This document shows positions 1 through 20,000 of a stretch of 20,000 nucleotides of DNA, in pieces. Each line of letters begins with the position of its first letter. Position 1 is the first letter of the stretch. The DNA comes from Microthyrium microscopicum (Eukaryota). The notes beneath the pieces were generated by a model, which saw only the letters and a program-made list of their open reading frames with translations, searched no databases and was not told where the DNA came from. The position numbers and the translations under genes were made by a program. The stretch spans positions 769,984 to 789,983 of the forward strand of contig MU004242.1 in assembly GCA_010405405.1 (NCBI GenBank). Reading direction: 5' to 3'.

Positions 1-2130
1 GTGAAAAGGTTTTCGCCTGGCGCGATTTAAGCGGCGCAAAGGAAGACTTATGGGAATTTGTCTGTGACACTTCGACTAGACCTGAGACAGTCGAGACATT
101 CGAAATCGCCGCCATTCGCTGTCAATTCGAGCGCAAATACAAGCGCAACTCGGATACTGCCACAGAAACTGAACTTCAAGAATTCCATTTCGCAGAACAA
201 CCTATACCTTCCGCCAGTCCTATCCTCAAACCATCATCCGCCTCTCCTACAATATCTCCTTCACACACCTCCACACGACTACAGGCTGACGCCACTGAAG
301 CAGACGGAAGCATGTCCTCTAAATCACCAGCTGGAAGAGGGGTCGGCGCAAGCTCTTCTCAAGCTGCTCCCCAGCCCGTAGCTCATCCTGAGGGTCGCGA
401 GACCTATACTCGTGAAGCGGGTGAGCTGCATCTGTTTGACATCGATACTGGTACATTTGTCCTACAAGACAATGCGGTCGAAGCTGTAGTCATGGACTTG
501 GGCAGTTGGAACTACTGGCTCAAAATCACTGGACAAAGCCGAAATTGGCTCGGTCGCATGATTGAAGACGATATCAACCCCGTTTTCAACTTTGAATACC
601 TTTCTGCAATCTTCAACGTTTATGGCGCAGATCATTCAGCCTATTCATGGCTTCTTCGGTTCAAAGATCGAGAAGTTCTGGAAAAGTTCCAGCAAGGTCT
701 TATGCAAGCGCTATGGGAACACAACAATCAGGTAAAATGGGCCAAGCTCAAAGACAACGACCAGGATTACATCCTAGAAGCGTTCAACGACATGACAATG
801 GAAGATGTTGAAGAAGAGCCTGAGGAAGAAATTGAAGAGAGTGATGAGGCAGAAGAGGAGCGACCTCGTCACCGCTCCGAGGAGTATGATTCTGATGAAT
901 CGCAAGATGATACGGAACAGCAAAAGAAGGACGGAAACGTCAACTCACAGCTTGCAATTGGTCAACGCCATAATCGAGCCTTTGTTGTGCGTGGTTCGAA
1001 TATTGGTGTATTCAAGAACGACGACGATGGGCACAATCTCTCATTCGTCACCAATATTCAAAAGGTTGCCACTCCAAAGGGCAAACTATTCTCGCCAAAG
1101 AAGGTCATGTTGCATGCTGGTGACGCAAATCTGATCATGCAAAGCGAGGACAATCCCAACGGAGTTTATCGCATGGATTTGGAGACTGGAAAGGTTGTCG
1201 ATGAGTGGAAGGTGCACGATGATATTGCAATCAATACCTTTGCTCCAGAAACCGTAAGTCTTTCAATATGAAAACACGAAACCACTTTTACTAACAATTA
1301 TCCAGAAATTCGCCCAAATGACCGACCAGCAAACTTTCCTCGGTGCATCCAAGAACGCCATGTATCGCGTCGACCCCCGTCTAGGCGGCAACAAGCTCGT
1401 CGACACCGACCTAAAGCAATACGCCTCCAAAACCGGCTTCACCACTGTCGGCACCACCGAGCAAGGCTACATCGCCGTCGGTTCCGAAAAAGGCGACATC
1501 CGTCTCTATGACCGTCTCGGCATCAATGCCAAAACCAACCTCCCTGGCCTCGGTGATGCCATCATCGGCATCGACGTCTCCGCCGACGGCCGCTGGGTTC
1601 TCGCGACCGCCAAAACCTACCTCCTCCTCGTCGACACACAACAAAAAGACGGCAAATTCGAAGGCCGTCTTGGCTTCGAACGTTCCTTCCCAAAAGAAAG
1701 CAAGCCCGAGCCCCGCCGCCTCGCTCTGACTCCCGCACATGTAGCGCAATTCATGCACGAAACAAAAGCACCCATCAATTTCACGCCAGCGAAATTCAAC
1801 ACGGGCCCAAATCTTGAGGAAACTACCATTGTCACCGCCACCGGTCCCTTCGTCATTTCCTGGTCTCTCAAGAAGATCGTAAAGGGTCAGCGTAATCCTT
1901 ACAGCATCAAGCGCTATACCGACGAAGTCAAGGCGGATAACTTCCGCTTCAACAGCGATAAGGGCATTATTGTGGCTTTGCCGAATGAGGTCGATGTGGT
2001 TATGAAGAAGGCGCTTAAGGCACCCACGCGAGAGAGCATTGCGGCACCACGATTGAGTGCTGCTGGGAGACGGAGTGGTGCGCGGAGAAGCGGGTATTTG
2101 GGGAGAGATGATATTGTTAAGAACTACTAA
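1..2130 (+). CDS. VID27: Vacuolar import and degradation protein 27, 5'-partial; join(<3..1253,1306..2130)
   Basis: The frame of ORF 312..1271 stays open back to position 3 (EKVFAWRDLSG...WEFVCD...CQFERKYKR, typical of the VID27 N-terminal region), so the ATG at 312 is internal. It has a PH-like segment (ELHLFD...YWL...FNFEYLSAIFN...YSWLLRFKD), an acidic linker, and a C-terminal propeller (GYIAVGSEKGDIRLYDRLGINAKT.LPGLGDAIIGIDVSADGRWVLAT). Phase-0 intron 1254..1305 (GTAAGT...ACTAAC...CAG) joins PET|KFAQMT. Confidence 0.95.
1254..1305 (+). other. Spliceosomal intron of VID27 (52 nt)
   Basis: GTAAGT donor, TACTAAC branch site, CCAG acceptor; removal fuses ORFs 312..1271 and 1318..2130 in frame. 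Confidence 0.93.
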
Positions 2131-2726
2131 GAAAGATTGAATGGTTTGGTTGGGCTGAGTGAGATTCGTGTGCAGATTGACTTGGTGGACGCTTGTTGTT
2201 GTTGCGTCCGTAGTCTCGCTGGATAGAATGTGTTGCTGTTTTCTTGTTATATTTCTGCGTTGTTGAACGGCCCTATTTTGTGTTTTATGTTCATGATGGG
2301 AAGGGTGTTTGTTTTGAAAGTATCTTTGGCGTATTTGATTTGACGAGCGTCGATAGTCTCCGCTGCAGTTGTTAGGATCGGTTTTGGGTTTGCTTGGGCA
2401 CTGGTGGATTTGATGTCTATGCGTCTAAGAATCCAGTTCTTGATGTGTGGATTTGATGAAGGATGCGGGATATGAATCAGTAGAAGGAAAGTATGGTAGA
2501 TAGCTACATGAACTCTTCAGTATGTTAGGAAGTTAGGAACGACATTGCATCCCTTTTCTAAATCATTGATCGAATTTCATCTTAAGACGCGCAAGTCTAT
2601 TCTACAAGTCGACTCGAGGAGTATTTCCAACCTCAATATGCAATGACTTGCTTCCTTCACCAAACAATACCTGTGTCTTGGTTCCCACTTTAGCATGGCA
2701 ACCAGATCTCCACCTCAGATGCCCCA

Positions 2727-2954
2727 TTACATCCTGCTCATCGCTTCGGCAGCTGCTGACTTCGCCATCGCAGCTTCGTATTCAATTTCGCAATCTCGAC
2801 AAGGCTCGGTTTTGAGATGGATATGGTCATGAGGAACGCAGTAGATCTGGTGAACTACACAGAACACCGGCTTTCCCTGTTCCCGTTTCCTGCAGTTTCC
2901 CTTGTATTTCTTTGGGCAATGGTGTTTCGTTGTTCCTACTCTCCCGTGTGGCAT
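2727..2954 (-). CDS. Small Cys/His-rich hypothetical protein (75 aa), possible zinc-binding
   Basis: Good fungal start context (CACAATG). Pattern C-x7-C-x10-C-x2-H-x3-C-x2-H-x9-C-x2-C followed by an Ala/Glu-rich helical tail. No signal peptide. The 3' end could be extended by splicing. Confidence 0.55.
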   Translation of the reverse strand: MPHGRVGTTKHHCPKKYKGNCRKREQGKPVFCVVHQIYCVPHDHIHLKTEPCRDCEIEYEAAMAKSAAAEAMSRM

Positions 2955-3292
2955 TGTGATATGATGCCTGGATTGGCGCAGAAAGGTCTTGAGTGTAGAA
3001 AGTGCGTGATGATTGGTATGGATGGCTGTATGTTTGCGAATAATAAACTCAACATAGCTGGTATGTATGCTAGAAAGCTTATTAGTACATATTCTGAAAG
3101 ATGGTGTTGCTCATATTCACAGCAAGTAGCCAAATGACCTATATCTATTAGCTATTGACCAGCCAGTGTTGCAATTTTGTGGCTGCGCCTTCCCTGACTT
3201 ATAGCAAGCAGTCAAAGGGTCCATGATATAAGTGACAGATCGTAATAGAGTCTATACCGCTTGAGAAGTTCCAGTGTCAATGTGTGCATCTC

Positions 3293-3362
3293 CCATCGGA
3301 TGCGCTGGGAATTAAAGCATCTTTTCGTTGACAAGTGCGATGGTGGCCATCGCAGTCGATGG
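3293..3362 (-). repeat. Copy U1 of a ~70-bp palindrome-array element (CCATCG-N4-CGATGG units), reverse orientation
   Basis: CCATCG-GATG-CGCTGG at 3293 and CCATCG-CAGT-CGATGG at 3347 are 54 bp apart. The reverse complement of 3293..3319 matches 6214..6240 at 23/27 nt. Confidence 0.8.
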
Positions 3363-4277
3363 GAGCTGATCAGTTGTTGGGCTCACTGGAAGGGCAGTGT
3401 CATTGTTAATCACATTGGCTCAAGAGCCATATTATCAATTGAAATCTTGAAAGATACCCTGCTCAAATACAGAAATTTGCAAAGCTCTCGTGTGGAGGAA
3501 TCGCCAGGCACAAGCAGTATGTCGGCTGGGAGCTTTTCAGGACCAGGAGAAAATACTCGCTTTCACCACTATGCAATAAAGTCATAACAGGCCCACCGTG
3601 ATCTAGGATTTGTGACATCAGATGTTGTTACTTCTACTTGACGCTCAGTATCCGTAGCCATCACATCGTCGCGAATAATCACCCTTATCGAAAATGGCAT
3701 TCCTGTGCACCCCGATCCATTCTCAAACTGCAGCAAGCTGGAGTTACAGCCGAAGCGAATAGTGTGACGGCTACCTGAAAGGTTATGTACATTGTCAATA
3801 AGACAAAACTTGAAGTTTCTTCAGCCTTACATTTGTGTCATAAGGCTGAAGTGAAGCCTTACCTATTTTGATTTAGCTCAGCCTTGACTCGCTCTTTCCT
3901 TAAATTCTCCCACCATATACCTTCTTATCACCTAGGTATTTCTTTCGTAACGGTATGTAAAAGTCATCGCCCAGAAACTTAATGTTCTTCGCTACTGTCA
4001 ATAGCCACGGAAGACCAATTTTTGAGAATTGTTACCATTGACTAGCAATTCAGCGCGCAACAGGTCAAAAAGCAAACGGTCAGTGTCACCAACCGAAGGG
4101 ATCTGTCACCAGAAAGATAAAGTGGGGTAGGAAGACAAAGTTCTATCATTTATTGTACAAGCGCCGACTCACAGATATCAAAAACTTCATCCCTTCCTTA
4201 TTTCCAGCAATCATCTACTGCCGCCGTAGTGTAGATGCTTAAAGCCTCCTGCAACAAATCGATCCCGAAGCGACATC

Positions 4278-5570
4278 ATGGCCGAAAAGGAGCAAGCGAT
4301 GAGATCTCACGAGAATTCTATGGACTTGGCCTCCTTAAGTCTAAGGCCCAATATTGAGTCCCCCCCACCAAGTCCCACAGGTTCAGCTGTTTCGGAATCC
4401 TCAACGGTGGAGTGGAACCACGTACCTTTCACCGATTTCCAAGCGCAAGTTCTTGAGCTTGGCCTCGAAATTCTCAATGACTCAACTAGAAGTTCGATCG
4501 AGATTGAACGGCTAAGAGGTGGAGGTGAGAACCGAGTAATTGGACTAAAACTCACAAAGCCTGCAACATTCCAGCAACCTTCGGTGGTAGACAATTACGT
4601 TCTTCGAATCCCTCGCCGAATTTGCGATGCCGATTTCCCACATACCATGGCCCAATTGGATTTTGCTGCACGAGTGAGCAGTATTCCAGTTCCAAAGACA
4701 ATCAAGGTGGAATGTTCAAAAGAGAATCCTATTCAGAGTCCTTACCTTTTGCAAGAGCGTATCCCAGGTCAATCTCTGCTGGACGCTTGGCCAGATTTCA
4801 ATCTCTCACAAAAGCTGTCCGTGACTCGACAGATCGCAACCTTGTTCCAGTCGATTCGAGCCTTCCCAGTTTCACGTGGAGGCATTCCGGATCCAAAAAA
4901 AGAACTATTACCTTGGCCGCATCAACCTCCTATACTCCGATATCCTCAATGCAACTCTTCAGGCGAATCTCTGACTGGACCAGCATCTACGGCGTTATTC
5001 CAGAGTCCAACGGACATGTTGCAATCACGGTTGGATGTTTGGATGGAGAGAGATATCAAACATAGAAAGCCACTTTGGGAAATGCTCTCCCAAGGCTTCA
5101 AAAATCTCAACGCCACCACCGGTCTTTTCGAAAGCGAGTTTTATTGGTACCACGGAGACTTCCAGCCTCGGAATCTTCTCGTAGCAGTCATCAGCGAGGA
5201 GGAAGTCAAGATTACCGGTGTGCTAGACTGGGACAACAGCCATTTCGCCCCTGCGGTTGTAGCGTTTGAGCCGCCTTGTTGGCTGTGGATGCAAGATTAC
5301 TGGAAGGATGCTAGTGACCCAACACCTGATGGCACGGAATGGTACATGACCGAGGCGATGCTCTGTGAAAAAGCTGGTTTGATACCTACGAACGATGACG
5401 ACAAACAGATCAAAGAATGCTTTGAAGAATATTTGCAATCGCCTTATGTGCTGAAGTTTGCGTATGCCAACCATGCGGTTGATGCGAGAAGACTGTACAA
5501 AATGGTGCTTGATGGGCTCACGGATCAAGACGTTGGGGAGGTCGCAGTGAAAATCTGCGAACGTCACTGA
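4278..5570 (+). CDS. Aminoglycoside phosphotransferase / choline kinase-like (APH family) protein, 430 aa
   Basis: Long uninterrupted ORF with N-lobe GG.NRVIGL and YVLRIPR, PVP, PYLLQERIPG, a Brenner-type HGDFQPRNLLV motif and metal-binding ITGVLDWD. Confidence 0.88.
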   Translation: MAEKEQAMRSHENSMDLASLSLRPNIESPPPSPTGSAVSESSTVEWNHVPFTDFQAQVLELGLEILNDSTRSSIEIERLRGGGENRVIGLKLTKPATFQQPSVVDNYVLRIPRRICDADFPHTMAQLDFAARVSSIPVPKTIKVECSKENPIQSPYLLQERIPGQSLLDAWPDFNLSQKLSVTRQIATLFQSIRAFPVSRGGIPDPKKELLPWPHQPPILRYPQCNSSGESLTGPASTALFQSPTDMLQSRLDVWMERDIKHRKPLWEMLSQGFKNLNATTGLFESEFYWYHGDFQPRNLLVAVISEEEVKITGVLDWDNSHFAPAVVAFEPPCWLWMQDYWKDASDPTPDGTEWYMTEAMLCEKAGLIPTNDDDKQIKECFEEYLQSPYVLKFAYANHAVDARRLYKMVLDGLTDQDVGEVAVKICERH

Positions 5571-5765
5571 CTTTCTGTCTGTTTAAGTCTGTTTGGAGGC
5601 TCGTTTACCCTGCTAACGGAAGCGATTGTAGTCGAAAAGGTTGAATATATAATCCTGAGAGTTCAATAGTGTAGCAGAAATTATCAAATTGTGTCTAACT
5701 CAACTGGCTTGAGATCAACAGCTTCCAATAATACTCATACTCATATACCTTCAACCACGGTCATC

Positions 5766-7060
5766 ATGAACTCAAATCACATCAAAGACCACGAAATGCA
5801 AGCTACCGCGGCTGGTCCGCAAGATGTAGTGTTATTCACACTAGGTCAGGGGATATCAGCAACCTCAGCTCACTTCATGACATGGTAATTACCCTGAATC
5901 AGAGCAGTTCTGACGAAATCCAAAAACAACATATCTCCCATCGCACTCGATGGCTCCCATAAAACCTGTTCTTGTTCGAGTGCTGTGGGTCCCATCAGAT
6001 GCGATGGCACCCATAACACTTGAACATTATTTTGACCGGGCAAGGCTAAACAGTCCTTTCAACGTGTTGTCCAAAATAATGATCTTATACTAAAACATTT
6101 TAGGTAAGCCTTTTCTAGATTATACCATATTTCTTGACAACATTCAACAAAATCAAAAACAGCGTTGCTCCCATCGCATTCGATGGCTACCATATGATGC
6201 GCTTGTGATCGAGTGCTATAATTCCCACCGCACTCGATGGCTTCCATCAGAAAGCACTTTTATAATCTCTACTGACCAATTCCAGGGATGCCATATACAA
6301 TGACAGGGACGAATCTCGCCGGTACAAAATCCAGAGCTCGTGCAATGTAAGCCTAAAAGATGGAGCCATTGAATTCAAGGCTGGCACTGCGTTCACGAAA
6401 GAATCTCTGTATTCCAAACAAAAGAAACACGGGTTCTTGCAGACGGGCCCCCCCGGACGGCACGCATGGCTCATTTGCGTGGGTATAGAAGGAGGCCCCA
6501 TGAACGGACCGGAGCCACCGAGGATAGATCTTGAGCTGAGACTTGTGAGTGTCTAAGCAAAGAGCACTCTCTTCTTCATGTACTAACTCTTCTAGGAACC
6601 AGGCGATGACAAATGGCGCCGCGCAGGCAGCAATCTCATCACCTATAAGTCCATAACCAAGGCGTTCTGTCACGAAACAAAGCTACGAAAGCTCCTGGAG
6701 GTCACAAATTTTATGGATGGCGAATTATTTGTGATGCCAATCAAAGGTCCGATCGAGATTCCTGACAATGGCTTGCTTGAGTTCCAAGTACACAATCGAG
6801 GCTTCGTGTCCAGGGGTTTGAGAGGACAGCATGTCGGCCGTGGACCAGTGATAGTGCGATGTGTTGTCAATGACGACCTGCCAGGTACTTATGAGTTGTT
6901 GCATGAGCATCTCAAACTTGGGGGATGGCATTTCGAAAGTTGGGGTAGCGGAGAGACTTTTGGGGAGCCCATTGTCATTGATACAAGGAGCTCATATGGT
7001 CCTAAAGTCCCCAAATCTGTCAGATTTGTACCACAATCAGGGGCAAGTGGTAGTGGATGA
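5766..7060 (+). CDS. Multi-exon hypothetical protein. Model A: join(5766..5884,6286..6544,6596..7060), 280 aa. Model B: join(5882..5884,6045..6103,6286..6544,6596..7060), 261 aa
   Basis: Intron 6545..6595 (GTGAGT...TACTAAC...CTAG) joins an open exon 6286..6544 (DAIYNDRDESRRYKIQSSCNVSLKDGAIEFKAG...DLELRL) in frame to EPGDDKWRR...FMDGELFVMP (ORF 6713..7060). Acceptor ACTGAC...TCCAG at 6285; donors GTAATT at 5885 and GTAAGC at 6104. The 3' exons are well supported, the 5' structure is ambiguous, and no domain was recognised. Confidence 0.65.
5938..6007 (+). repeat. Copy U2 of the ~70-bp palindrome-array element (in predicted intron starting at 5885)
   Basis: CCATCG-CACT-CGATGG at 5938 and CCATCA-GATG-CGATGG at 5992 (+54). 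5935..5961 matches 6168..6194 at 25/27 nt. Confidence 0.85.
6171..6240 (+). repeat. Copy U3 of the ~70-bp palindrome-array element (in predicted intron 6104..6285)
   Basis: CCATCG-CATT-CGATGG at 6171 and CCACCG-CACT-CGATGG at 6225 (+54), with the same internal offsets as U2. Confidence 0.85.
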
Positions 7061-7277
7061 ATACCAGGGTACTAAAGAGCGTCTCGGAGTTTTTTCTTGA
7101 TGGAATTTGTCTGAATCTGTTTAAACTGTGTGATTTATCTTGATGCATAGGGCAGTAAGTACTTAACTTAACAAAAAAATATAAAATTGGTGTCAGAGTC
7201 GATTTTCGTCTGCGCAGAAGATATTGTGAAGTATAAGGCTGAGGCTCCGTCTATGCTTTACACTAACCCCTTTCGTC

Positions 7278-8960
7278 CTAGCCACCAGCCTCAATCCCCA
7301 ACTCCAACTTCTCAAATCTCATCAACAACGAACTCACCACCAATAATGCACCACCCGCCATAGCAGGCGCAAACATCTTGCGGATTGTCTCTGCAACCGC
7401 CACTGTCGCGATCTGTATGACTTTATCGTTGGCCGACGCGAACATCGGCGACAGCCGGCCTGCCAATGCAGACCGAATATACTCATCAGGGAAGTCATAT
7501 CCCGCAAATGCGCTCTTGAGCTCGCGAAATCCCTGATTTTGAAAGAGCGATCCTGCAATGGCGAGCGAGATGGACGTCGCGCCCAATTGGGACAGGTTGA
7601 TGAAGCCCAGCGCTTTTGACGAATCTTTCGGCGAGACTTTCGCAACGGCGATGGCGTAGGCGTTTTGCCAGACTAGCCCTGTGCCGGCTGCCACGAGAAT
7701 CTCGTAGCCGTAGATGTTTCCGCCAAGCGTGCTGGTGTTGATGGTATGTAGTAGTGATGTGCCAATCAGGATCAGTGAGCCGCCAGCTAGGTAGTAGAGG
7801 TTGTAGCGTCCAACGATGGGCAGCGTGGCGCCAGCCAACATCACGAAGAAGATAAAAATACAAATGAACGGTAACAGACGGATGGCGGCGCGTATGGCCG
7901 AGTCGCCTTTGGTGAATTGAAAGAATAGTGGGATGTAGTAGAGCGTGATACTTTGAGCCGCTGCACCGCTACTGGTAGCGGTGAAGAGTAAGACCAGAGT
8001 CCGGGATTTGAGGAAATGCACGGGAAAGTTGCGGTCATTGGTGAAGATAGAAAAGGCTTGCTGGACGATGAACGCGATGAAACAGGCGCCGAATACCACC
8101 CAGAGAGCGATAGATCCTCTTGAGTCCCAGGCGTACGTCGAGCCACTGAAGCAGAGAGCAACAATGAAGAGCACGAAAGCTGCGGCGTATAGTGTCGCCC
8201 CGAGCCAGTCGATACTTGCGAGCTTAGTCTTAATGCTGAGATCTGGTCGCGGATTCCTTCCTGGGAAGAAAAAGATGTACGATGGGAAAAACAGACCCGC
8301 GATAGGAAGATTGATGTAAAAGGCCTAAACATTCAAGTCAGTCCAAAACCAAAGCGAGTTGTCAAAACTAATACGTACCCAACGCCAAGTCGCACCACTC
8401 CCAGCAAACAGTCCACCCACCACTGGCCCAAGAATAGACCCAACACCCCAACTAAGCCCAATCAGGGCATTATATAATGGCGTCTCCGCCGGAGTCGTAA
8501 AAGCGGTAATATAGGTCAACGCCCCCAGATACATTCCCGCTCCACCAACTCCAGCAACAACTCGTCCTATAACCAACGTATTCGACGTTGGTGCAGCACC
8601 GCAAATGGCACTACCGACTTCAAACAGGGTCAAGCTGCATATAATCAACCATTTGACGTTAAAGAGCCCATATCCGCGCGAAAAAAGGAGGATAGTTGCG
8701 GCGGAGGCCATGGGGAAACCGATACCAATCCATTGTAGATTCTCGATGTCGCCTAGGTCTTCGTAGACTGGCCCTTGCACGTCGGCAGCGACGGTTGTAT
8801 CGAGGCCGTAGAGGATGGCGCCGAGATAGAGGATGATACAGATCAGGATCCATTTCCAGGTTGGGATGTTGGCGCGGGGGTGCGAAGGAATTGGAGTGTT
8901 ATCCAGTTCTGTGATGTTGTCATCGGCTTCGCTTGAGGGGGCGGAAGGAGGTTTTTCCAT
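7278..8960 (-). CDS. MFS drug/toxin efflux transporter, DHA2 (14-TMS) family; complement(join(7278..8324,8379..8960)), ~542 aa
   Basis: ATG at 8960 (GCAATG context). Motifs LYGLDTTVAAD, FEVGSAICGAAP, IGRVVAGVGGAG, GSILGPVVGG and, after phase-0 intron 8325..8378 (GTACGT...ACTGAC...TAG), WRW|AFYINLP. Many hydrophobic segments. Confidence 0.93.
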
Positions 8961-15606: not shown

Positions 15607-16073
15607 TTTGATGCGGTGGATGTTGTTGGGGATGGTTGATGGAAGAGGGCAGGACGGAGTGTGGTTAGATAGTAGTGGTTGCGCGTATCATGTCCTGGGC
15701 GTTTGGTACTCGTGTGGAACCAAGCTGGTATTTGAGGATAATCGACAGAGTCAAATCGATAGGGGATGCGCAGATTGGGAGGATGGTGGTGGAATTTGTC
15801 TGGAGAAGCAAGATTTGAAGAGGAGGTGAAGTTGGAATTTGAGCGCCATTTTTATGTGTGGATCCGCTACACCTCAACGCGTCCAACTATCGTGGGTTTC
15901 CCTGTACTCTACTTTCTACACATGTTGCATTGTATGATACTGTAATCAAGAGTTCACCATGACCATACGGTCCCTTAATGTACCAAAATCTCATTCTACT
16001 CTACTACTTTGATCCTTCAGTTCTACTCCGTATTACCTTAGTAGATCGATTGAGCGCGTCGCAACGCGCCAGC

Positions 16074-16240
16074 CAGGGTTGTGATTTAATTTAGTACTTT
16101 TTAATTAATTTCGAATTAATACTAATTAAATTAATTTTAATTCTTAATTTTCAAATTAACTTAGTATTAATTTGGGGTCTATACTAATTAAATTAATTAG
16201 GCTGAATTAAGAATTAATTAAATATATTAATTTAAATTAA
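16074..16240 (+). repeat. Probable terminus and subterminal repeats of a RIPped DNA transposon
   Basis: The block starts at CAGGGTTGTGATT. ATACTAATTAAATTAATT is repeated exactly at 16119 and 16181, among many AATTAA units. Confidence 0.45.
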
Positions 16241-18899
16241 TCTATTTTTAGTTATATAATTATTTCTAGTAAAGTTATATACTTTACTATTCCGTTTTCT
16301 TCGTAGAATTCAAATCTGTTCTTAGAATTTTTATATCTATTATAGTTATAATAATATAAATAGATTTAGAAAATATTTAATAATTATTATTAGTAAAATA
16401 AGAATATCTAACTAGTTATAATAGTTATAAAAAAAAGAATAGTATATCTAGATTCCTTAAGTTTTCTAGATACTAAATATATATAATAGCTTATATAAAA
16501 CCTAAATATACTAATAGTTATTAGCTTTAGGTTAAAAGTTAGTAAAATTTATATACTTCTTAATTCTTTTAATTACTTAAAAACAAGATATATAGCTACT
16601 ATTCTAATTATAGCTATAATATAATAAAAGTATATATTAAAATACTCATTATAAATCTAGGAATATAAATATAGTAATAATTTAGCTTAATATTATATAT
16701 TTATTACGTAATTAATATATTTAGAAAAAGAAAATTATAATTTATTAGTTTTATAGTATTTATAGTATTATATATAGTATATTAGCTTTAATTACTATAT
16801 ATATATATACTTATTATATACTAGGAAGTAGTATATAGTAAGTATATTTTCTTATTTAGTTATATATATTATATAAACTTAAAATATTTAACTATTTAAT
16901 ATAGTTTATTAAAAAATAAAGTTCTAAATATATTATATATAATTATTATAAGCTATAAGTATTTTTTTATACTTATAATAGCTATAAAAGATTATTAGAA
17001 GTAGTAATATAGCTTTATATAGTTAATATATATTATTAATAGTATATTTACTATTATTTTATAAATATTAAAAAAGCTAAAATATTTCTATCCTTTATAT
17101 ACTTAGTATAATATTATTATTATAATACTAAAATTACTTTAAACTAATTAGAAAAATAAGCTCTATAAAATAACCTATTTAGATTTGCTTATCTAAGCCT
17201 TAATAAAATAATTATATAAAGAAATTTAAAATAATAAACTATTATTTATTAATAGAACTAGACTTAGATAAGATAAGAAAAGTATAGCATTATAATTAGA
17301 AAAAATAGCTCTATCTACTAATATAATTAGTTTACTTATATAAGCTATACTAATAAATTTTAGAATTTAAATAAGAGAATAAAAATTATATTTCTAGTCT
17401 CTATAAATATCTAGATTATAATTATTAAAATCTACCATATCTTCTACTTCTATAGTATCTAATATACTATTATCTTATATTATAGCCTCTTCTTCTATAA
17501 TAATAGGAGTAGTTTATAGACTATAAAAAGGGCTAGGAGAATAATAGTTAGTAAGTCTAGTTCTTTCTAGATTAATTCCCTTTTTAGCTACTACTCTTCT
17601 TCTATTAGCCTAAATATAATTAGTACAAATATTAATTAATATAGTAATTACTTACTATAGTAACTATATATCTTTCTATAGTTTCTTTTTATTACTTTTT
17701 TTTATCTCTTTTTTACTAAATTATCTATTCTAAATAGCGTAATTCTAGTATATTATTTTTATTAGTTCTAGCTTTAGAACTATAAGGTATTTTTAGCTAA
17801 GAAAGCGTTTTTTTAAAAGGAAATTTAGTAGTAGAATTAGCCTATTTAGGCAGTTAATTTTTAGGCATATCTTAAAATTCTTTAGGCTAATTATTAATAC
17901 TTTATAGAATCCTATTAGATATTAGCTTAATAATTAATAAATAGTAGTTATTTATTACTTATATTTAATTATTATAGCTAGAAATAAAACTAAACTATTT
18001 TAACTATAAATCGTAAAGATTTCCTTCTAATTTTAGTAGTAAAATATATTAATGTTTTCTAATACTAGACTAAACTATTAGTATTTTAAATATAACTAGA
18101 ATAGTAGTATCTTACTAATTAAGCTAAAAGATATATTTATAGTTTAGTTCTTTTCATCATAGAATATAAAAAATATAGAATATATCTAGTTTAATACTAT
18201 TTAGTTAGATTTTCTATTCTAGAAAGCTTTAATAATAAAGAAGCTTACTTTTATCTTTAAAGAAGATTATATAGCTATAAGTAAAGCTAGTAGGTAAGCT
18301 ATTCTTCTTTAGGAGGAAGATTTTACTAGAGTATATTCTTTTTAAAGAAATAAAAGTAGTAGTATAATCTAAAAACTTGCTAACGAATCTCTAAGCTTTA
18401 CTAAGCTAATCTTAAGTCTAAGGGATTACTAAACTTATTAGAAATAACTAAAAAAAGTATTTATTATTTATAGCATAGTATGCTTTCTCTTAGTATAGCT
18501 TATATATTAGCTATTCTAAAAATAATTAGTTAATTAAAAAAAAAGTAAAAAAATAATAATATTAGAAAATAAGGTATAACTTACTTAAAAGTATAACTTA
18601 AGGAAAGCTAACACTATAGCTAAAAAGAGCAAAAAAAACTAAATAAAAAAGTATATTATATAATTAAATACTAATAAGTAAAGTACTAGAAAAGTAGAGG
18701 TAAATATATTAAGTTAGAAAATAGTTATTAAAGTAGAAATAGGCGTATAAGTAGATAACCTAAAGGGCTAGATTACTATACTAAGGCCCTTATTATCTAT
18801 TAGCCCTTAGTATAATTACATATATTATAAATTAGATTAGTATAGTTATATTACTATTTAGATTATTAAGTAAGTTAATATAGATTAAATACTAAAGTC

Positions 18900-19545
18900 T
18901 ACGCATATCTATTTATAATTATAAAGGCTAAATTATAAATAATTATAAGAACCCTATAAGATAAGCGTAGATTAAGAACTAGATTATACATAATTACTAA
19001 GAATAGATAAATAAGTAAGCAAGTATAAATTTAAAGCTAGGATAATAAATAAGTTAAGTAAGATCTACGTTCTAAATTTATGTTATCTATTTATAATTAT
19101 AAGGGCTAGATTATAAGTAAATAAATCTAGACCTAGATCTACGCTTATTTACTAAGATACTTATTATTACTTATAATCTAGCTCTTATTATTATAAGTAA
19201 TTAAGTAAGATCTACGTTATAGATCTTACTTAACTTACGTATTATTCTAGCTTTAGATCTATACTTACTTACTTGTTTATCTATTCCTAGTAATTATACA
19301 TAATCTAGTCTTTAATCTATGCTTATCTTATAAGGTTCTTATAATTACTCATAATCTACCCTTATAATTCTAAATAGATAACGTAGATCTAGAATATAAA
19401 TCTTACTTTACTTACGTATTATCCTAGCTCTAGATCTATACTTACTTACTTATTTATCTATTTCTAGTAATTATGCGTAATCTAGCCTTTAATCTATACT
19501 TATCTTATAAGGTTCCTATACTTACTTATAATTTAATTCTTATAA
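18900..19545. repeat. ~178-bp unit repeated in tandem and inverted orientation
   Basis: TATCTATTTATAATTATAA recurs at 18906 and 19084 (period 178). ACTTACGTATTAT recurs at 19233 and 19410 (period 177). About 19220..19380 is the reverse complement of about 18906..19067, differing mainly by transitions. Confidence 0.85.
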
Positions 19546-20000
19546 ATATCTTATATTTAGCTTATATTTAAACGTAGATTAAACAGTCTAGAAACACTTA
19601 CTTATTAAATAGTTAGATTAGTAATAACTATTCCCTAAAATAGTAGTAAAGGTAGTAAGATAAGAAGAACGTTAGCGTAGTAAACTAGCTCTTTAAATTA
19701 TATATAAGTAGTAGTAGTTTTCCTCTAGAAATAATTATATTTTATCTTATCTTATCCTATTCTATTTTATTCTATTTTATACTCTTTTACTTTCTATTAT
19801 ATTAGTAATACTATTAGTAGTACTACTAGTTTTTTATTTCTATTATATCTACTATATTTTATAGTTATACTAGCCTTTTATAGTTATAAGTAAGTTATTT
19901 TCTATTTAATTTACTTAGTAAATTAACTAACTTTATTTTTAGAAATCTTATTATTTATTAGTATTTCTATAGAAATACTAATAATATATAGATCTTATTA

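What the first reader, a model, noticed from the sequence alone, without database searches (positions are those of the whole stretch)
5885..6285. Intronic ~70-bp palindrome-array element (CCATCG-N4-CGATGG) repeated in neighbouring long introns: possible introner-like or splicing-regulatory family
Seen: two related blocks (5938-6007, 6171-6240) each carry 16-bp palindromes CCATCG-N4-CGATGG at offsets 0 and +54. Each also has a degenerate reverse unit at +35 (GAGTGC core) and CCAT starts at +19 and +73, with identical offsets in both. Both are preceded by AATC(C)AAAAACA. They lie between canonical splice signals (GTAATT 5885 ... TTTGAC..AAG 6044; GTAAGC 6104 ... ACTGAC..CCAG 6285). These introns are 160 and 182 nt, about three times the 49-61 nt of every other intron here. 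The 6-bp arms are better conserved than the 4-nt loops (CACT, GATG, CATT, CACT), which suggests selection on pairing or dyad binding. Established: introner-like elements in Dothideomycete fungi are long, mutually similar, hairpin-forming introns. Inference: a multiplying intron family, an intron-borne MITE, or a structured RNA/protein-binding module that I do not recognise as described.
Basis: partly seen in the sequence, partly recalled or inferred. Interest (0 to 1): 0.8.

Follow-up and report, generated by a model that had tools for sequence, protein, structure and literature searches.

The report
Short hairpin repeat inside fungal intron
The two palindrome-rich blocks are copies of a short, hairpin-forming repeat scattered over this fungal genome (a third copy lies between genes nearby), and they look like small mobile-element relics sitting in one long intron rather than a self-multiplying intron family.

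Summary
CCATCG-N4-CGATGG occurs 6 times at up to 1 mismatch (0.02 expected), always as pairs 54 bp apart. The blocks are three diverged copies (A 5913-6037, B 6147-6277, C 3269-3391 on the opposite strand) of a ~95-130-bp foldback element. Contigs of the source genome's DNA run pile onto A and B at about 7-8 times single-copy depth, each with different flanks, so this is a dispersed family of dozens of loci, not a local duplication.

The intron reading is not supported:
- The proposed 59-nt exon carries an in-frame stop when read from ATG 5766.
- The deposited protein (Microthyrium microscopicum) implies one 455-nt intron. A 401-nt variant fits the only distant relative slightly better.
- An RNA contig runs unspliced across the acceptor at 6285.
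- A-B similarity excludes both donor sites, and copy C is intergenic.
- All 3 arm substitutions break pairing and none is compensated.
- The three copies fold differently.

Best reading: an undescribed MITE-like or foldback repeat lodged in a long intron. No target-site duplication or autonomous partner was found. Interest is low to moderate.

The parts
5913..6037 (+). Copy A of the repeat. It has an A-rich left part (CCAAAAACAAC), 16-bp palindromes at 5938-5953 and 5992-6007, and a degenerate unit around 5973-5989.
   Evidence: Gapped local alignment to B; nhmmer E 4e-32. Foreign contigs of the DNA run align from 5920-5935 to 5953-6007.
5973..6026 (.). A 54-nt near-perfect palindrome inside copy A, centred on the second 16-mer.
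   Evidence: Self reverse-complement alignment. RNA fold of copy A gives -39.9 kcal/mol, z -6.07, and 0 of 200 shuffles fold as well.
6147..6277 (+). Copy B of the repeat, with palindromes at 6171-6186 and 6225-6240. Two foreign contigs already align from 6125/6129, so its left end may lie further upstream.
   Evidence: For 6129-6193 a contig from elsewhere matches 59 of 65 letters, whereas copy A matches only 40 of 65.
3269..3391 (-). Copy C, in opposite orientation and apparently intergenic. It folds end to end as one hairpin, with outer inverted repeats TTCCAGTG/CACTGGAA and inner CTCCCATCG/CGATGGGAG. Its palindromes are at 3293-3308 and 3347-3362.
   Evidence: E 1.6e-31 on the minus strand; -51.8 kcal/mol on the + strand read, z -2.8; minus strand z -4.1. 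No credible ORF or family around it.
5885..6285 (+). The most likely single long intron (401 nt, GTAATT...CAG), holding copies A and B. The deposited model starts it at 5831 (GTTATT, 455 nt).
   Evidence: Frame analysis. The deposited protein P0004 is reproduced by an intron at 5831-6285. The 5885 donor aligns slightly better to the distant relative P0006, score 159 versus 151. Splicing was not shown by RNA: contig 6163-6416 is unspliced.
5766..5884 (+). Putative first coding exon of the orphan gene (in the deposited model it ends at 5830).
   Evidence: Not covered by homology except the junction tryptophan.
6045..6103 (+). It is most likely intronic spacer.
   Evidence: In-frame stop when read from ATG 5766. 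Absent from the deposited protein. Adds nothing to the alignment with P0006.
6286..6544 (+). Second coding exon of the orphan gene.
   Evidence: The alignment to P0006 covers it.
6545..6595 (+). Ordinary 51-nt intron, seen spliced in RNA.
   Evidence: Joint 6544->6596, GT..AG, in one contig of run X5.
6596..7062 (+). Last coding exon of the orphan gene, with its stop codon.
   Evidence: (100% identity to a 262-aa hypothetical protein).

Best explanation
The blocks are members of a dispersed family of short (~95-130 bp), non-coding foldback repeats in an ascomycete genome. The one protein named by a source says Microthyrium microscopicum, a Dothideomycete.

Each member is built from 16-19-bp self-complementary modules (CCCATCG-N4-CGATGG). 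The modules sit near both ends, so the two ends are inverted repeats of each other. An A-rich stretch lies on one side, and in other copies a T-rich stretch lies on the other.

The most likely origin is a non-autonomous DNA element of the MITE or foldback kind. [quoted passage not shown] Copies A and B are separate members lying head to tail inside one long 5' intron (401-455 nt) of an orphan gene, and they supply 256 nt of its length. Copy C sits between genes on the other strand.

Shown: the family is multi-copy and dispersed, the hairpins exist, the frame logic holds, and RNA with copy B unspliced exists. Inferred: mobility by transposition, and that the copies are passengers in the intron rather than its makers. 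Their hairpins may slow splicing of this intron.
For: (1) The family is dispersed.
- In DNA run X4, 64 contigs were laid on 2500-7500 and 53 of them fit only partly.
- Summed depth rises from ~1108 (single copy) to 7845 and 8763 over the bins holding A and B.
- Summed depth at 5951 is 28156, about 25 contigs.
- The foreign contigs each have single-copy depth (1014-1077) and continue into unlike flanks; loose-end consensus agreement is only 0.49-0.77.

(2) A and B are not a local duplication.
- A contig from elsewhere matches B 6129-6193 at 59 of 65 letters, while A matches 40 of 65.
- At 6202 and 6205, 11 and 12 foreign contigs carry the other letter, so B departs from the family majority.

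(3) A third copy in the window (C) lies on the opposite strand. It has 8-9-bp nested terminal inverted repeats, folds as a single 123-nt hairpin, and has no credible gene around it.

(4) The family is not confined to spliced-out sequence.
- Run X5 behaves as RNA: it has two clean splice joints, at 6544->6596 and 7000->7064.
- It has 27 laid contigs, 22 only partly, with depth 334-386 over the elements against 38.5 for the neighbouring gene.
- One 2165-nt contig at depth 55 carries the element at its positions 1927-1999.
- Contig 6163-6416 joins copy B to the downstream exon without splicing.

(5) There is no conserved RNA structure. The three copies fold in three different ways, covariation is 0, and Rfam has no match.

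(6) Loose ends of other copies show full modules where A has degenerate ones, and a T-rich right side mirroring the A-rich left. This fits a modular foldback design.

(7) Collemare et al. 2013 (PMC3609843, passages read) report the same situation in three other fungi: repetitive elements inserted within regular introns that mimic high-copy introns but are not introner-like elements.
Against: - No target-site duplication could be found at any of the 3 copies (read from the and 4 sequences around the ends set). Their exact ends are uncertain.
- No autonomous partner or empty site could be sought, because no genome is held.
- Copies differ by 9-28%, so there is no sign of recent activity.
- I never saw the other copies' sequences. 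I saw only difference tables, coordinates and 30-letter loose ends, so their genomic context (intron, UTR, intergenic) is unknown.
- Both A and B end with YTGACC 6-8 nt before an AG, and each has a GTAA string 28-43 nt upstream. That is what an introner-like unit would look like.
- X4 may be the very sample the window was assembled from. That is fine for counting copies but gives no independent confirmation of the locus.
Confidence: 0.68

Rival explanations
1. Introner-like element. Each block is the core of a self-multiplying spliceosomal intron (5885-6044 and 6104-6285) that brings its own splice signals and a stable hairpin.
For: - The strings GTAATT/GTAAGC, a branch-like TTGAC/CTGAC and an AG are present around both copies.
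- The A-B alignment runs up to TGACC, just before each AG.
- With ATG 5882 the two-intron model is open.
- Copy A is very stable, z -6.07.
- The host is a Dothideomycete, the class in which such elements were described.
Against: - The shared sequence excludes both donors.
- From ATG 5766 the 59-nt exon has a stop. The deposited model and the only relative ignore that exon.
- Copy C has no gene around it, and its flanks do not align with those of A and B.
- An unspliced RNA contig crosses 6285/6286 with 123 and 131 letters on either side.
- There are no compensatory changes.
- Copies are 72-91% alike, not near-identical.
- The supplement of Gozashti et al. 2022 lists this species with zeros where Zymoseptoria has ones (header not seen). 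That screen also scores Dothistroma as zero, so it is conservative.
Confidence: 0.1
2. A dispersed, non-mobile, minisatellite-like array. The 19-bp palindromic module expands and contracts locally and spreads by recombination or repair, not by transposition.
For: - Other copies carry different numbers and orientations of the module. Loose ends after 5953, 5959 and 5961 start new modules.
- No target-site duplication was seen.
Against: - TRF finds no tandem array in 3000-6600.
- The non-module parts are also shared between copies: the A-rich left part, the central GTGCT, and TAATTCCCA in B and C.
- Dozens of unlinked single-copy loci are hard to get without a spreading mechanism.
Confidence: 0.12
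3. A selected cis-acting module: a structured RNA or a dyad binding-site array for a dimeric protein that regulates splicing or transcription of the genes that carry it.
For: - Six dyad-symmetric 16-mers at fixed spacing.
- Arms match in 69 of 72 positions.
- The elements are present in RNA contigs.
Against: - All 3 arm changes break pairing, and covariation is 0.
- The majority second palindrome in other copies is itself imperfect, as seen in the loose ends after 6219.
- The copies fold differently from one another.
- Rfam has no match.
- Arm conservation is built into the way the units were found.
Confidence: 0.06
4. A purely local tandem duplication of a ~233-bp segment within one gene, with no family behind it.
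For: A and B lie 233 bp apart in the same orientation.
Against: - Their flanks do not align.
- Copy C lies 2.5 kb away on the other strand.
- 53 partly fitting contigs come from elsewhere in the genome.
- B is closer to a foreign copy than to A.
Confidence: 0.02

Closest known systems
MITEs and foldback elements (short non-autonomous DNA transposons). Fungal examples such as mimp of Fusarium and guest of Neurospora, and the Drosophila foldback elements whose inverted ends are made of short subrepeats, are recalled and not checked here.
   Same: Short, non-coding and multi-copy, dispersed near and in genes. The ends are inverted repeats, the whole element can fold into a hairpin (copy C), and the inverted ends are built from short repeated modules.
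   Different: No target-site duplication and no autonomous partner was found. Each terminal module is itself a palindrome, and module number and orientation vary between copies. I have not seen either feature described for a fungal MITE; the literature searches found nothing on it.
[quoted passage not shown] 2013, PMC3609843, passage read)
   Same: Repeats that make introns look like a high-copy intron family but failed the stricter tests for introner-like elements.
   Different: Different species.
Introner-like elements of Dothideomycetes (van der Burgt et al. 2012, recalled; Collemare et al. 2013, passages read)
   Same: Same fungal class. Sits in an unusually long intron, has a stable predicted hairpin, and has many related copies.
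   Different: In an introner-like element the repeated unit is the whole intron, with its own splice sites, near-identical copies and compensatory changes. None of these was met here.
Internally symmetrical sister (stw)introns of Hypoxylaceae (Fekete et al. 2021, PMC8469720, abstract read)
   Same: Proliferated fungal intervening sequences with 45-55-nt terminal inverted repeats and no flanking duplications.
   Different: Those are complete, spliced introns integrated seamlessly in coding sequence. Here the repeat is only part of an intron, and one copy is intergenic.
Bacterial REP/BIME palindromic units (analogy only, recalled)
   Same: Small imperfect palindromes clustered in alternating orientation and dispersed in non-coding, transcribed DNA.
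   Different: Prokaryotic, mobilised by a dedicated tyrosine transposase. There is no evidence of any such enzyme here.

Membership tests
Introner-like elements (ILE) | The repeated unit is the whole intron, including canonical donor, branch point and acceptor | tested here: not met
   A-B similarity spans 5913-6037 / 6147-6277 and excludes the proposed donors at 5885 and 6104. The flanks of A, B and C do not align. Copy C has no gene around it.
Introner-like elements (ILE) | Many near-identical copies in unrelated genes | tested here: inconclusive
   There are dozens of copies (53 of 64 contigs fit only partly), but they are 72-91% alike and their gene context is unknown. The row for this species in a published screen reads zero (header not seen).
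Introner-like elements (ILE) | Removed by splicing | tested here: not met
   RNA contig 6163-6416 crosses the acceptor unspliced, at depth 4.7 against 2.64 for the spliced downstream contig. This is one run of contigs, so the splicing level cannot be measured.
Introner-like elements (ILE) | Longer than regular introns, with a stable predicted secondary structure | tested here: met
   The intron is 401-455 nt, against 51 and 63 nt for the two RNA-supported introns. Fold z-scores are -6.07 (A), -2.34 (B) and -2.82 (C). The length, however, comes from two inserted copies.
Introner-like elements (ILE) | Compensatory mutations that keep the structure | tested here: not met
   0 of 6 pairs show a change on both sides, and 3 of 36 cells are unpaired.
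MITE / foldback element | Short, non-coding | tested here: met
   95-131 bp. No ORF or protein family.
MITE / foldback element | Terminal inverted repeats | tested here: met
   Copy C has TTCCAGTG...CACTGGAA and CTCCCATCG...CGATGGGAG and folds as a full-length hairpin. In A and B only the inner palindromic modules are clear.
MITE / foldback element | Target-site duplication | tested here: inconclusive
   None was seen at the 3 copies. I read the flanks in the and 4 sequences around the ends set, but those ends are uncertain. The TGAC near both ends of A and B is shared between copies, so it belongs to the element or its target rather than being a duplication.
MITE / foldback element | Multi-copy and dispersed, with different flanks | tested here: met
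   depth 7-8 times single copy, foreign contigs at single-copy depth, unlike flanks.
MITE / foldback element | Autonomous partner with the same ends; empty sites in relatives | not testable with these tools
   No genome is held. The gene is an orphan, with only the protein itself at 100% identity and two weak hits among 1.84 billion representatives.
Known RNA families (Rfam) / tRNA-derived SINE | Match to a covariance model or a tRNA-like head | tested here: not met
   0 matches at gathering threshold on the whole window and 0 at E<=1 on 3200-6400. ARAGORN found 0.

The most novel reading that the evidence does not exclude
The family is an intron-generating DNA element: a MITE with inverted-repeat ends whose right end supplies a branch point (YTGAC) just upstream of an AG. 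It would have created or rebuilt introns in this terrestrial ascomycete. This would give fungi the DNA-transposon type of introner, a type for which ascomycetes were reported as the outlier lacking transposon signatures (Gozashti et al. 2022, passage read).
Probability: 0.08. Interest if true: 0.7.

Novelty: new member of a known kind. Interest (0 to 1): 0.27.

Why it matters
Mostly this is a caution and a lead.
- It shows how a short dispersed repeat lodged in an intron can pass for an introner-like family when read from a single window.
- It flags an uncertain gene model: three different exon-1/intron solutions keep the frame open.
- It documents an apparently undescribed foldback repeat, built from self-palindromic modules, in a little-studied Dothideomycete whose genome also carries RIP-like AT-rich blocks. 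Such repeats are short enough to escape RIP, which may explain how they persist in dozens of copies.
- If genome-wide analysis showed that copies contribute splice signals, the family would bear on how fungal introns are gained.

Tried and rejected
Copy context, element ends and target-site duplications could therefore not be tabulated.
- Metagenome scan with a 19-letter pattern from copies A and B: 26 loci, each with a single hit, GC 0.41-0.70, none with any other part of the element. These are chance matches.
- Earlier findings of this scan: nothing by place, sequence or words.
- Rfam at gathering threshold and at E<=1: nothing. tRNA: nothing. TRF: nothing but a 15-bp hexamer run. nhmmer with a profile of the 3 copies: no further copy in the window, best other hit E 2.4.
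- Sequencing runs: no RNA holder is listed on record. X5 is only guessed to be RNA, though its two splice joints fit that.
- Parts of the window without X5 cover (2500-3167, 5694-5839, 3335-3456) say nothing about expression.
- No X5 contig shows any of the candidate junctions 5830^6286, 5884^6286, 5884^6045 or 6103^6286. That is no evidence of absence.
- An idea that C shares a GT 22 nt upstream of its end with A was dropped, because the flanks do not align.
- The snoRNA idea (C/D-like strings in B) was dropped: there are dozens of copies and no Rfam match. The idea of a known fungal transcription-factor site was dropped: no recalled motif fits.
- Protein searches for the host gene:
  - The 'longer' length class found none.
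  - The 'near' length class found only the protein itself.
  - The exhaustive search found the protein itself plus two weak hits.
  - Pfam found none.
- Literature:
  - 0 papers hold the species name together with 'introner'.
  - 22 papers hold the species name; none of the 22 listings is about its repeats.
  - 0 papers hold either 16-mer; hits to the shorter strings are unrelated primers.
  - Searches on MITEs plus Dothideomycetes gave nothing relevant.
  - The PDF appendix of Gozashti et al. 2022 was not readable, and I did not see the header of the supplement table.

Full report
**What is in the sequence.** Two are exact CCATCG-N4-CGATGG and two have one mismatch. Across the whole window the pattern matches 6 times at up to one mismatch, against a mean of 0.02 in 200 dinucleotide shuffles; no shuffle reached 6.

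The two blocks align ungapped over 99 nt at 72% and with gaps over 5913-6037 versus 6147-6277. The third copy, 3269-3391, aligns better in reverse orientation (score 74 against 42 versus B). A profile of the three copies finds nothing else in the 20 kb.

**Anatomy.** Copy C is a 123-nt foldback. Its outer inverted repeats are TTCCAGTG/CACTGGAA and its inner ones CTCCCATCG/CGATGGGAG, and it folds end to end as one hairpin. Copy A contains a 54-nt near-perfect palindrome (5973-6026) centred on its second 16-mer, plus the small first hairpin. It is far more stable than shuffles (-39.9 kcal/mol, z -6.07). Copy B folds in a third way and only weakly (z -2.34). The copies therefore share palindromic modules but not one structure.

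Among the six 16-mers, 33 of 36 stem cells pair. The three departures are single changes that break a pair, no pair has changes on both sides, and the covariation score is 0. The apparent 'arms conserved, loops free' pattern is largely ascertainment, because the units were found by their arms. The loops are also not free: they read CACT, CATT, CAGT, or the reverse complement of CATC. TRF sees no tandem array, Rfam sees no family, and there is no tRNA-like part.

**It is a dispersed family.** No genome is held for the window, so I laid contigs of public runs on 2500-7500. In DNA run X4, which holds the whole stretch and may be its source, 64 contigs were laid and 53 fit only partly.
- Summed depth is about 1108 over single-copy sequence but 7845 and 8763 over the bins that hold A and B.
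- Summed depth at position 5951 is 28156, about 25 contigs.
- The foreign contigs have single-copy depth each (1014-1077), match 61-74 letters with 6-14 differences, and run on into unlike sequence.
- The consensus of those loose ends agrees only 0.49-0.77, so the flanks differ.
- At 6202 and 6205, 11 and 12 foreign contigs carry the other letter, so copy B departs from the family majority.
- One foreign contig matches B over 6129-6193 at 59 of 65 letters, whereas copy A matches only 40 of those 65.

A and B are therefore separate family members, not a local duplication. Loose ends of other copies start full modules where A has degenerate ones. They also show an A-rich stretch before the first module and a T-rich stretch after the last, which points to a modular foldback with variable module number. 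I could not see the other copies themselves, only coordinates, difference tables and 30-letter ends. A metagenome scan with a 19-letter pattern gave 26 chance hits in unrelated, mostly GC-rich contigs.

**Where it sits.** The window is fungal. It encodes VID27, an APH-type kinase-like protein, an MFS transporter, alternative oxidase and a GPN-loop GTPase. The last 4 kb have only 17-21% GC. The last exon of the gene downstream of the blocks is 100% identical to a 262-aa hypothetical protein that NCBI names as from Microthyrium microscopicum.

That deposited protein equals exons 5766-5830, 6286-6544 and 6596-7059. This means one 455-nt intron (GTTATT...CAG) containing both blocks. It stays open only if translation starts at ATG 5882, right at the donor. 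A third model, one 401-nt intron from the better donor GTAATT at 5885, is also open. It aligns slightly better to the only distant relative found among 1.84 billion representatives (score 159 against 151, with a tryptophan at the junction). The homology starts at the junction and does not cover the 59-nt exon's product.

**RNA.** Run X5 is only guessed to be RNA, but it shows two clean splice joints: 6544->6596 (GT..AG, the 51-nt intron) and 7000->7064 (CT..AC, a minus-strand 63-nt intron). It does not cover some stretches that the DNA run covers. One X5 contig covers 6163-6416 without a break, joining copy B to the downstream exon across the proposed acceptor at 6285. It has 123 and 131 letters on either side, and its depth is 4.7, against 2.64 for the spliced contig further down. 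So RNA with this part of the 'intron' retained is at least as frequent as the exon in that sample. This is either intron retention or a start inside the region. No X5 contig shows any of the four candidate junctions, which proves nothing. The family is also present in other RNA contigs: 27 were laid, 22 only partly, with depth 334-386 over the elements. One is a 2165-nt contig at depth 55. The family is therefore not confined to spliced-out sequence.

**Copy C.** It lies between VID27 and the kinase-like gene, and no credible ORF or family surrounds it.

**Interpretation.** The evidence fits a family of short non-coding foldback repeats, most likely relics of a non-autonomous DNA element of the MITE or foldback kind. 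Two members lie head to tail in one long 5' intron of an orphan gene and account for 256 of its 401-455 nt. At about 125 bp such repeats would be below the length at which RIP acts (recalled from Neurospora). That would explain their survival in a genome that otherwise shows RIP-like AT blocks.

Mobility itself is inferred. I found no target-site duplication at the three copies, their ends are uncertain, and no autonomous partner could be sought.

[quoted passage not shown] 2013, PMC3609843, passages read). Here the length and, for copy A, the stability criteria are met. The defining ones are not: the shared sequence excludes the donors, one copy is intergenic, an unspliced RNA exists, there are no compensatory changes, and copies are 72-91% alike.

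[quoted passage not shown] That is the closest described situation.

In the supplement of Gozashti et al. 2022 (PMC9860276), the row for this species reads 0 0 0 0, where Zymoseptoria reads 0 1 0 1. I did not see the header, and the screen needs at least four similar annotated introns, so this is weak evidence.

The symmetrical sister stwintrons of Hypoxylaceae (Fekete et al. 2021, abstract) share inverted-repeat ends and the lack of flanking duplications, but they are complete, spliced introns.

**What stays open.** Both A and B end in YTGACC a few bases before an AG, and the branch point for the acceptor at 6285 may lie in the weakly aligned right end of copy B. I therefore keep a small probability that the family contributes splice signals, or even makes introns. 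Only the genome-wide context of the copies and junction-level RNA-seq can settle this.

**Verdict.** The interpretation as an introner-like or splicing-regulatory family in two long introns is not supported. The 'intron-borne MITE' alternative is the best fit. This is a new member of a known kind, of low to moderate interest.

Noticed in passing
window 16001-20000: GC drops abruptly from ~0.49-0.52 to 0.17-0.21. This is an AT-rich block of the kind left by repeat-induced point mutation, directly after the GPN-loop GTPase gene.
   Followed up: no
window 6696-7354, minus strand: One RNA contig of X5 covers 7354-7064 and 7000-6696 with a CT..AC joint, a 63-nt minus-strand intron. It lies downstream of the MFS transporter ORF, which ends at 7278. 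It looks like a spliced 3' UTR running antisense through the last exon of the orphan gene.
   Followed up: partly
window 5831 vs 5885: The deposited gene model uses the weak donor GTTATT at 5831. The donor GTAATT at 5885 also keeps the frame, adds 18 residues plus the junction tryptophan, and aligns slightly better to the only distant relative (159 against 151).
   Followed up: yes
window 3457-3607: A 160-nt RNA contig (depth 4.5) lies in the otherwise unannotated gap between copy C and the kinase-like gene's transcript contig (3948-5693).
   Followed up: no
   Followed up: no
window 3-2130: The VID27 homologue is split over two overlapping frames (3-1271 and 1258-2130), presumably by a short intron near 1260.
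   Followed up: no
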